Below, in pieces: positions 16,654-16,884 of a stretch of DNA of 64,000 nt. The position numbers and the translations under genes are program-made. The stretch's first letter is position 1. Every line of letters begins with the position of its first letter. The stretch comes from Naegleria gruberi (lineage: Eukaryota). The stretch lies in assembly GCA_000004985.1 (NCBI GenBank), contig GG738880.1; one strand, written 5' to 3'. The notes beneath the pieces were generated by a model, which searched no databases, was not told the DNA's origin, and worked only from the letters and a program-made list of their open reading frames with translations.

Positions 16654-16884
16654 ATGGCAAAGTGTTCAGGTTGTGGCGATTCTTGTGTTAAACTCCATAA
16701 GATTTCATGTAAAGATGGATGTGTTGTGTCAGTGTGTCACATGTGTCATGCAACTCCTCAAGGTTAGTTGTAAAAAAAGTTTTTGAATGATATTCGAATA
16801 TTGTATAATATTACATTGTTATTAGCTCGTATTGGTACTAAATGTTGTTCTTGTGGAAAGATTGCTTCATGGAAGAAATTGTAA
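16654..16884 (+). CDS. Small spliced cysteine-rich protein (about 55 aa, 12 Cys) with 2 exons (16654-16764 and ~16830-16884; boundary coordinates counted by hand, ±1-2 nt)
   Basis: The ATG is in the context aaacaataATGgca. Exon 1 encodes MAKCSGCGDSCVKLHKISCKDGCVVSVCHMCHATPQ. It ends at the donor G|GTTAGT, and the unspliced read-through hits a stop immediately. A 65-nt AT-rich intron ends in ttattag. Exon 2, in phase 1, encodes ARIGTKCCSCGKIASWKKL*. The ORF is too small for the ORF track. This model rests on inference. Confidence 0.35.

What the first reader, a model, noticed from the sequence alone, without database searches (positions are those of the whole stretch)
16654..16884. Unannotated small intron-containing cysteine-rich ORF (about 55 aa, 12 Cys) in a 1.3-kb gap between two genes
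The ATG sits in a classic A-rich context (aaacaataATGgca). The first exon encodes MAKCSGCGDSCVKLHKISCKDGCVVSVCHMCHATPQ. It then stops immediately unless a 65-nt AT-rich intron is removed, with donor G|GTTAGT, acceptor ttattag and phase 1. Removing the intron adds ARIGTKCCSCGKIASWKKL*. The sharp contrast is telling: the exons are GC-balanced and Cys-codon-dense, while the intron is about 80% AT. This is typical of real exons in this genome. Paired CxxC / CxC / CC motifs suggest a small metal-binding (zinc-ribbon- or metallothionein-like) protein. The ORF is too short for the supplied ORF track and would be missed by most gene finders.
Basis: seen in the sequence. Interest (0 to 1): 0.55.

Follow-up and report, generated by a model that had tools for sequence, protein, structure and literature searches.

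The report
Possible unannotated small cysteine-rich Naegleria gene
A two-exon reading frame for a 55-residue, cysteine-rich peptide really sits in a gene-free gap of the Naegleria gruberi genome and looks like a genuine small gene by every internal test, but it has no detectable relative anywhere and no expression evidence could be checked, so it stays a plausible, not a proven, orphan gene.

Summary
The ORF, its start context, the donor, the acceptor, phase 1 and both exon peptides are as described. Three details are wrong: the intron is 63 nt (16763-16825), the peptide has 10 Cys (plus 3 His), and the genome is Naegleria gruberi, not a dictyostelid.

Internal evidence favours a real gene:
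- The donor (caag|GTTAGTT) matches, over 11 bases, the donor of a 62-nt intron in this window that I verified by F-box domain continuity.
- The acceptor is the first usable AG.
- Synonymous codon usage is typical of this window's genes (56th percentile) and in the top 5% of non-coding DNA.
- The proposed frame is the best of six.
- The 100-nt leader is A/C-rich and G-poor, like the leaders of confident genes.
- Cys codons are confined to the two exons.
- No comparable construct arose in 8 Mb of simulated spacer.

Against it:
- No homologue in Pfam, PDB, 5.8 billion protein clusters or JGI metagenomes; exon 1 found none among 1.84 billion representatives.
- No counterpart at the matching loci of N. 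fowleri, N. lovaniensis, Willaertia or an uncultured relative, where gene order is rearranged.
- Part of the Cys richness comes from a TG-rich stretch.

Verdict: probably (about 50%) an unannotated, lineage-restricted small gene. The metal-binding role is inferred from composition only. Modest interest.

The parts
16554..16653 (+). Putative 5' leader / promoter-proximal region, A/C-rich and G-poor on the sense strand
   Evidence: Composition is A 0.54, C 0.18, G 0.04, T 0.24. G content is at or below the 5th percentile of intergenic 100-nt windows and resembles the leaders of confident genes: 16049(-) G 0.05, TIM14 G 0.07, 11633(+) G 0.06. There are no TGY triplets in these 100 nt. A weak 13-nt tandem repeat (AAATCAAACAATTA) covers 16601-16652. 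An in-frame TAA lies 12 nt before the ATG.
16654..16762 (+). Exon 1: start codon plus 36 codons and 1 base; MAKCSGCGDSCVKLHKISCKDGCVVSVCHMCHATPQ; 7 Cys, 3 His
   Evidence: GC is 41%. TGY density is 0.13 per nt against 0.029 window-wide. A at -3 and G at +4 around the ATG.
16763..16825 (+). Putative spliceosomal intron, 63 nt, phase 1, GTTAGT...TTATTAG, 19% GC, with in-frame stops
   Evidence: The donor context ctcaag|GTTAGTT shares an 11-mer with the donor of the verified 62-nt intron 25581-25520. The acceptor TTATTAG equals that of the verified kinesin mini-intron 24549-24508. It is the first AG more than 20 nt after the donor.
16826..16884 (+). Exon 2: ARIGTKCCSCGKIASWKKL plus stop TAA; 3 Cys
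   Evidence: Cys codons appear only after the acceptor in this frame (ORF 16783-16884). TGY density is 0.088 per nt against 0.03 in the 3' flank.
16987..16992 (+). First AATAAA after the stop, 103 nt downstream; possible polyadenylation signal (inference only)
   Evidence: Such hexamers are common in AT-rich DNA, so this carries little weight.

Best explanation
This is an unannotated, lineage-restricted (orphan) two-exon gene of Naegleria gruberi. It lies between the divergently transcribed PNRC-like gene (14562-16049, -) and the TIM14/Pam18-like gene (17339-17737, +).

Proposed working: transcription starts in the A/C-rich leader. A 63-nt GT-AG phase-1 intron is removed. The mRNA encodes a 55-residue, about 6-kDa, Lys-rich peptide with 10 Cys and 3 His and no signal peptide or hydrophobic segment. 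The peptide would stay in the cytosol and fold around, or buffer, metal ions (Zn2+ or Cu+) through its paired ligands: C4xxC7, C11xxxH15, C19xxxC23, C28(H29)xC31(H32), C43C44xC46.

Shown directly: the ORF, the splice signals, the composition and the codon statistics. Inferred: transcription, splicing, translation and metal binding.
For: 1. Splice signals are those this genome uses.
- The donor caag|GTTAGTT is identical over 11 nt to the donor of the 62-nt intron 25581-25520. I verified that intron because the Pfam F-box-like domain (E = 2e-11, profile positions 3-47 of 47) runs across its junction without a gap.
- The acceptor TTATTAG equals that of a kinesin mini-intron whose removal restores the P-loop GQTGSGKT.
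- The acceptor is the first usable AG.
- Verified introns in the window are 42, 43 and 62 nt, and those introns and other plausible ones here are 14-29% GC. The candidate is 63 nt and 19% GC.

2. Synonymous codon log-odds is +5.5 bits. That is the 56th percentile of real 55-codon chunks and is exceeded by only 4.8% of non-coding chunks.

3. Codon log-odds picks the proposed frame: +5.7 bits against -5 to -51 bits for the other five. Without the 10 Cys codons the score per codon equals that of real genes.

4. TGY density follows the exon map: 0 in the leader, 0.13 in exon 1, 0.05 in the intron, 0.088 in exon 2, 0.03 in the 3' flank. This is the only TGY-dense patch in the window that is not antisense to a poly-Gln coding repeat.

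5. The leader is G-poor and A/C-rich, like those of confident genes. There is an A at -3 and a G at +4.

6. Chance controls. In the real window the only other short product of similar Cys density is an antisense poly-Gln artefact. 8 Mb of Markov-simulated spacer gave 0 comparable constructs.
Against: - No homologue anywhere: Pfam at E <= 10, PDB, the word-indexed 5.8-billion-cluster search and a JGI metagenome scan. phmmer with exon 1 against 1.84 billion representatives gave only a spurious repeat protein.
- No counterpart in 13-21 kb around the matching genes in N. fowleri, N. lovaniensis, Willaertia and an uncultured relative.
- Overall codon log-odds (+5.7 bits) is only at the 5th percentile of real coding.
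- TGY triplets are not significantly frame-biased (10/4/5, p = 0.065). A TG-rich low-complexity stretch supplies about 3 Cys codons.
- No transcript evidence could be consulted.
- The AlphaFold model of exon 1 alone has pLDDT 56, which is uninformative.
Confidence: 0.5

Rival explanations
1. It is a chance ORF. The 1.3-kb spacer is non-coding DNA left at a lineage-specific rearrangement junction. A T/G-rich patch happens to be open for 36 codons after an ATG, and a fortuitous GT..AG pair extends it.
For: - No homologue in any collection and none at the matching loci of four relatives.
- The PNRC-TIM14 interval is rearranged: N. fowleri and N. lovaniensis hold 5-6 genes there.
- TGY triplets are frequent in all three frames (10/4/5) and a weak TGTGTCAA repeat is present.
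- Total codon score is low for a gene.
- Other Cys-dense frames in the window are known artefacts, being antisense to poly-Gln.
Against: - Several independent signals coincide: the exact donor 11-mer of a verified intron sits at the ORF's end, the acceptor is the first usable AG, exon 2 is again Cys-rich in the spliced frame, synonymous codon usage is gene-like (top 5% of non-coding), and the leader is gene-like.
- 0 comparable constructs in 8 Mb of simulated spacer.
- The patch is not antisense to any ORF, and its reverse frames score -12 to -43 bits.
Confidence: 0.33
2. It is transcribed and perhaps spliced, but it is a young 'proto-gene' or non-coding transcript from the bidirectional promoter region. 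Any peptide has no selected function, so the Cys richness is incidental.
For: It lies between two divergent genes, where promoter-associated transcription is common (general knowledge). It is restricted to one lineage. It sits at a recent rearrangement junction.
Against: Synonymous codon usage already matches that of established genes. Both exons share the same unusual composition, which is more expected of a selected product.
Confidence: 0.12
3. It is a decayed fragment (pseudogene or relic exon pair) of a larger cysteine-rich gene lost during the deletion or rearrangement that brought the PNRC-like gene and TIM14 together in N. gruberi.
For: Relatives carry 5-6 genes in this interval.
Against: None of those genes' DNA or translations resembles the ORF or the spacer by tblastn, tblastx or blastn. 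The ORF has its own ATG just after an in-frame stop, and a proper stop codon.
Confidence: 0.05

Closest known systems
Metallothioneins and metallothionein-like peptides (e.g. yeast Cup1, fungal and plant MTs)
   Same: Small size (55 aa), 18% Cys, CxxC / CC / CxC motifs, rich in Lys, Ser and Gly, no signal peptide. The C-terminal ...KCCSCGK resembles, from my memory, the ...KKSCCSGK end of Cup1; that is a lead, not a test.
   Different: No sequence match to any Pfam metallothionein family, or to any other family, at E <= 10. It has more hydrophobic residues (5 Val, 3 Ile, 2 Leu, 1 Trp) and 3 His. Cys content is at the low end for the class. No metal-binding or induction data exist. A Naegleria copper study (PMC7578549) attributes copper detoxification in N. 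fowleri to a Cu-ATPase and the antioxidant system and reports no Naegleria metallothionein.
Small zinc-ribbon / treble-clef zinc-finger mini-proteins
   Same: It has paired CxxC knuckles (C4xxC7 and C28xxC31, plus C43xxC46) spaced about 20 residues apart. That is enough ligands (13) for two or three tetrahedral sites. The size is typical of stand-alone zinc-ribbon proteins.
   Different: No profile match and no PDB relative (best E = 1.5, a seryl-tRNA ligase, judged spurious). The AlphaFold model of exon 1 has low confidence and shows no beta-hairpins. The full peptide could not be modelled.
Short GT-AG spliceosomal introns of Naegleria gruberi verified in this window
   Same: The same donor 11-mer as the F-box gene intron (62 nt), the same TTATTAG acceptor as a kinesin mini-intron, similar length and AT content.
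   Different: Those introns are confirmed by protein-domain continuity. The candidate's junction has no homology or RNA support.

Membership tests
Metallothionein (operational class) | Low molecular mass (under about 10 kDa) | tested here: met
   55 residues.
Metallothionein (operational class) | High Cys content (about 15-30%) arranged in CxC, CxxC and CC motifs | tested here: met
   10 of 55 residues are Cys (18%). Motifs present: C4xxC7, C28xxC31, C43C44xC46. This is at the low end of the range.
Metallothionein (operational class) | Few or no aromatic residues, low hydrophobic content | tested here: inconclusive
   1 Trp, no Phe or Tyr, 3 His, but 10 Val/Ile/Leu residues.
Metallothionein (operational class) | Sequence similarity to a recognised metallothionein family | tested here: not met
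   No Pfam family at E <= 10. No relative in the 5.8-billion-cluster collection, and none for exon 1 among 1.84 billion representatives.
Metallothionein (operational class) | Binds several metal ions in thiolate clusters; expression induced by metal | not testable with these tools
   This needs biochemistry or metal-exposure RNA-seq.
Zinc-ribbon / treble-clef zinc finger | Two CxxC (or CxxH) knuckles contributed by separate beta-hairpins | tested here: inconclusive
   The CxxC pairs are present.
Zinc-ribbon / treble-clef zinc finger | Match to a zinc-ribbon profile or a solved structure | tested here: not met
Protein-coding gene with a spliceosomal intron (N. gruberi) | Canonical donor, acceptor, length and composition as in verified introns of the genome | tested here: met
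Protein-coding gene with a spliceosomal intron (N. gruberi) | Gene-like codon usage in the proposed frame | tested here: met
   Synonymous log-odds is at the 56th percentile of real coding and in the top 4.8% of non-coding. It is the best of six frames. Total log-odds is low because of the Cys codons.
Protein-coding gene with a spliceosomal intron (N. gruberi) | Conservation of the ORF in related species | tested here: not met
   Absent from the matching loci of N. fowleri, N. lovaniensis, W. magna and an uncultured relative. Whole genomes were not searchable.
Protein-coding gene with a spliceosomal intron (N. gruberi) | Transcription and junction reads | not testable with these tools
   N. 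gruberi RNA-seq exists (PRJEB23822, PMC6142364) but cannot be queried here. N. gruberi transcript assemblies do not appear to be in the collection: the neighbouring TIM14 protein is held from one NCBI contig only.

The most novel reading that the evidence does not exclude
The ORF is a functional, recently arisen (N. gruberi-lineage-specific) metallothionein-like gene born in the spacer created when the PNRC-like and TIM14 genes were brought together. It would be the first metallothionein-type metal buffer described in Heterolobosea, and a clean example of a young intron-containing small gene.
Probability: 0.12. Interest if true: 0.5.

Novelty: new variant of a known kind. Interest (0 to 1): 0.25.

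Why it matters
If real, it adds a missed small gene to the N. gruberi annotation and offers a candidate cytosolic metal-binding peptide. In this genus, copper and iron handling is studied because of the pathogen N. fowleri, and the literature search here found no report of a Naegleria metallothionein. Its absence from N. fowleri and N. lovaniensis at a rearranged locus would also make it a tractable case of lineage-specific gene birth. If it is not real, it shows how TG-rich spacer DNA plus abundant GT/AG dinucleotides in an AT-rich genome can imitate a Cys-rich mini-gene.

Tried and rejected
- Dictyostelid origin: rejected. The neighbouring protein is 100% identical to an N. gruberi protein.
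- Pfam, PDB and the word-indexed protein search with the 55-aa peptide: nothing.
- phmmer of exon 1 against 1.84 billion representatives: one hit, P0008. It is a 577-aa protein with repeated WHYIDCxDGSVVSYTHGAT motifs and no shared Cys pattern, so I rejected it as spurious.
- Exact look-ups of the exon-1 ORF, the 57-aa downstream ORF and TIM14: not on record.
- Both JGI metagenome scans (peptide, then TIM14): no confirmed relative.
- Synteny route: loci fetched around TIM14 orthologues (L001-L008) and PNRC-like orthologues (L009-L014). No peptide match by tblastn, and no spacer similarity to the N. fowleri TIM14 locus (L001) by tblastx or blastn.
- L009, a 99.4%-identical N. gruberi-like metagenome contig, ends about 150 nt short of the ORF.
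- A non-coding RNA, tRNA or repeat as an alternative identity of the spacer: Rfam at E <= 1 and ARAGORN found nothing, and only weak repeats were seen.
- A minus-strand gene: rejected by stop codons and by codon scores of -12 to -43 bits.
- AlphaFold on exon 1 alone: pLDDT 56, unusable, so no fold search was run.

Full report
**What is there.** The window is Naegleria gruberi, not a dictyostelid. The ORF at 17339-17737 (a Pam18/TIM14-type J protein) is 100% identical to an NCBI 'predicted protein [Naegleria gruberi]', and its next relatives are N. fowleri (80%) and Willaertia magna (63%). Only 39.3 kb of the window is real sequence; 24,670 positions are N.

- ATG at 16654 in aaacaataATGgca.
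- Exon 1 at 16654-16762.
- An immediate in-frame TAG unless an intron is removed.
- Donor G|GTTAGT at 16763 and acceptor ttattag ending at 16825, phase 1.
- Exon 2 at 16826-16884.
- Product MAKCSGCGDSCVKLHKISCKDGCVVSVCHMCHATPQARIGTKCCSCGKIASWKKL (55 aa).

Corrections: the intron is 63 nt, and there are 10 Cys plus 3 His, not 12 Cys. An in-frame TAA lies 12 nt upstream, so 16654 is the first possible start. The ORF sits in a 1,289-nt spacer between a PNRC-like gene (14562-16049, minus strand; Pfam PNRC on its orthologues) and the TIM14 gene (plus strand). These two genes are divergently oriented.

**Is the intron credible in this genome?** I looked for introns in the same window that can be verified independently.
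- In the F-box/G-alpha gene on the minus strand, removing 25581-25520 (62 nt; caag|GTTAGTT...TTACAG) yields ...NYDFYRIAT|SDIVWRSLCLRY. Pfam F-box-like matches across that junction with no gap (E = 2e-11, profile positions 3-47 of 47).
- In the kinesin gene, two mini-introns (43 nt and 42 nt, both GTATGT...TAG, the second ending TTTTATTAG) flank an 87-nt exon. Removing them restores ...LAYGQT|GSGKTFTMG, the kinesin P-loop.

The candidate's donor context ctcaag|GTTAGTT shares 11 consecutive bases with the verified F-box donor. Its acceptor TTATTAG equals the kinesin acceptor. Its length (63 nt) and GC content (19%) are typical. The acceptor is the first AG more than 20 nt downstream of the donor. 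The splice signals are therefore not merely 'GT...AG' but are of the kind this organism uses.

**Coding signals.** I built a codon table from 16 long ORFs of the window (27 kb) and compared it with the remaining DNA.
- The proposed frame scores +5.7 bits. The other five frames score -5 to -51 bits.
- That total is only at the 5th percentile of real 55-codon chunks (mean 18.6, s.d. 7.4). The deficit is entirely due to the ten TGT codons (-12 bits), because Cys is rare (1%) in the training genes. The other 45 codons score +17.6 bits, which equals the per-codon score of real genes.
- A measure that removes amino-acid composition, the log-odds of synonymous codon choice, gives +5.5 bits. That is the 56th percentile of real coding chunks and is reached by only 4.8% of non-coding chunks. 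Assuming normal distributions, I estimate a likelihood ratio of about 6 in favour of coding.
- By my own hand count, GC at codon positions 1 and 3 is about 0.40 and 0.24. The window's genes have 0.41 and 0.22.

**Composition follows the exon map.** TGY triplets per nucleotide:

| Segment | TGY per nt |
|---|---|
| 100-nt leader | 0.00 |
| Exon 1 | 0.13 |
| Intron | 0.05 |
| Exon 2 | 0.088 |
| 3' flank | 0.03 |
| Whole window | 0.029 |

The leader (-100 to -1) is A 0.54, C 0.18, G 0.04, T 0.24. Its G content is at or below the 5th percentile of intergenic windows. It matches the G-poor, A/C-rich leaders of the confident neighbours: 0.05 for the PNRC-like gene, 0.07 for TIM14.

**Chance controls.**
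- I enumerated every ATG ORF joined through any GT..AG pair of 40-300 nt on both strands of the window, keeping products of 40-100 aa with at least 8 Cys. That gave 8 start sites. Apart from two alternative starts within this same spacer (16719 and 16916), the rest are four 90-99-aa products with 8 Cys and one short product made of antisense poly-Gln codons (…CCCCCCC).
- TGY-dense patches occur five times in the window. The other four are antisense to long ORFs; I checked two of them as (CAA)n-type repeats, which read TGT in another frame.
- A third-order Markov simulation of 8 Mb of spacer-like DNA gave no construct with a consensus donor, a 40-200-nt intron, 45-90 aa and at least 8 Cys. Only 6 first exons had at least 5 Cys and ended at a consensus donor.
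- Weaknesses: the Markov null ignores local compositional patches. TGY is also frequent out of frame (10/4/5; p = 0.065), largely because of Cys-Val and Val-Cys neighbours. TRF reports a weak TGTGTCAA x2.9 repeat at 16725-16748, which supplies about three Cys codons.

**Comparative evidence is negative but weak.**
- The peptide has no Pfam family at E <= 10.
- It has no PDB relative. The best hit is at E = 1.5, which I judge spurious.
- No protein in 5.8 billion clusters shares words with it.
- Two JGI metagenome scans found nothing.

Through the neighbours I fetched the matching loci:
- N. fowleri: L001-L003, L011, L012.
- N. lovaniensis: L013.
- Willaertia magna: L004.
- An uncultured relative: L005-L007, L014.

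Gene order is conserved on the far side of TIM14 (TPR protein, kinesin) in N. fowleri and on the far side of the PNRC-like gene (SGT1-like protein) in N. fowleri and N. lovaniensis. Between the two, however, N. fowleri and N. lovaniensis carry 5-6 extra genes (ADH, CDP-alcohol phosphatidyltransferase and others), and the uncultured relative has different neighbours again. None of these loci contains anything resembling the peptide.

The ORF therefore lies in an interval that is specific to the N. gruberi lineage. That fits either a young orphan gene or junk DNA. Whole genomes of the relatives could not be searched. Small intron-containing genes would probably be unannotated there too, so the protein-database negatives carry little weight.

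The absence of the peptide from the protein collection also says nothing about expression. The N. gruberi TIM14 protein itself is represented by a single NCBI contig, so N. gruberi transcript assemblies do not appear to be in the collection. A metagenome contig 99.4% identical to window 13169-16505 (L009) stops about 150 nt short of the ORF.

**Other identities for the spacer.** Rfam (E <= 1) and ARAGORN find nothing in 15900-17500 and 15000-18000 respectively, and only weak repeats are present. Minus-strand frames are closed and score poorly.

**What it would do.** The peptide has no signal peptide or hydrophobic segment. It is 18% Cys and 15% Lys (8 of 55), and is also rich in Ser and Gly. 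Its ligands come in pairs: C4xxC7, C11xxxH15, C19xxxC23, C28/H29-x-C31/H32 and C43C44xC46. That makes 13 potential ligands, enough for two or three tetrahedral Zn sites or a small thiolate cluster.

This fits the operational definition of a metallothionein-like peptide at the low end of Cys content, or a stand-alone zinc-ribbon-type mini-protein. Neither class membership is supported by sequence profiles. A copper-detoxification study of N. fowleri attributes detoxification to a Cu-ATPase and the antioxidant system and reports no Naegleria metallothionein (PMC7578549). Metal binding is therefore inference from composition only.

**Verdict.** Intrinsic evidence from several partly independent signals makes a real, unannotated, lineage-restricted small gene the single most likely reading, at about 0.5. 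A chance ORF in TG-rich spacer remains a serious rival, at about 0.33. The remainder covers a non-functional young transcript or a relic fragment.

The decisive test is simple and external: junction reads 16762|16826 in existing N. gruberi RNA-seq (PRJEB23822; PMC6142364). Interest is modest. An orphan 55-aa ORF without expression or conservation support is not surprising. Even if real, it would be a new sequence variant of a familiar kind of protein, a small Cys-rich metal-binding peptide.

Noticed in passing
window 39501-40722 and 2462-3686: The last 1.2 kb of real sequence, after the 50-N gap at 39451-39500, repeats window 2462-3686 at 98.8% identity over 1,230 nt. Both copies adjoin N gaps, and everything after 40722 is N padding. 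This looks like an assembly duplicate or an allelic contig at a scaffold end.
   Followed up: partly
window 24508-24679 (minus strand): The kinesin gene has two mini-introns of 43 nt (24679-24637) and 42 nt (24549-24508), both GTATGT...TAG. They flank an 87-nt exon that encodes SAIYDSSVKSLVDGLFQGYNATVLAYGQT. Joining the exons restores the P-loop GQTGSGKT.
   Followed up: yes
window 25520-25581 (minus strand): A 62-nt intron with the non-consensus donor GTTAGT splits the F-box of a large F-box/G-alpha-type gene. It is verified because the Pfam F-box-like domain runs across the junction.
   Followed up: yes
window 14562-17737; loci L011 and L013: The PNRC-like gene and TIM14 are direct divergent neighbours in N. 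gruberi. In N. fowleri and N. lovaniensis they are separated by 5-6 genes (ADH, CDP-alcohol phosphatidyltransferase, others). Gene order outside this interval is conserved, so there has been a lineage-specific deletion or insertion.
   Followed up: partly
L009 (ENA ERZ929261, run ERR1078381, PRJEB11402) against window 13169-16505: A 3.3-kb metagenome contig is 99.4% identical to the window (16 mismatches, 2 gaps). An N. gruberi-like strain is therefore present in that sample and could supply polymorphism data for the ORF.
   Followed up: partly
window 12954-14204 (+): A 416-aa ORF ends in a long run of near-identical EIDEYEKTIKNMRD-type repeats. Its antisense strand carries a 187-aa ORF that is probably an artefact of the repeat.
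   Followed up: no
window 16960-16981: A short palindrome-like element, CTCTCTGTACATATATAGAGAG, lies about 80 nt downstream of the candidate's stop codon and just before the first AATAAA. Its significance is unknown.
   Followed up: no
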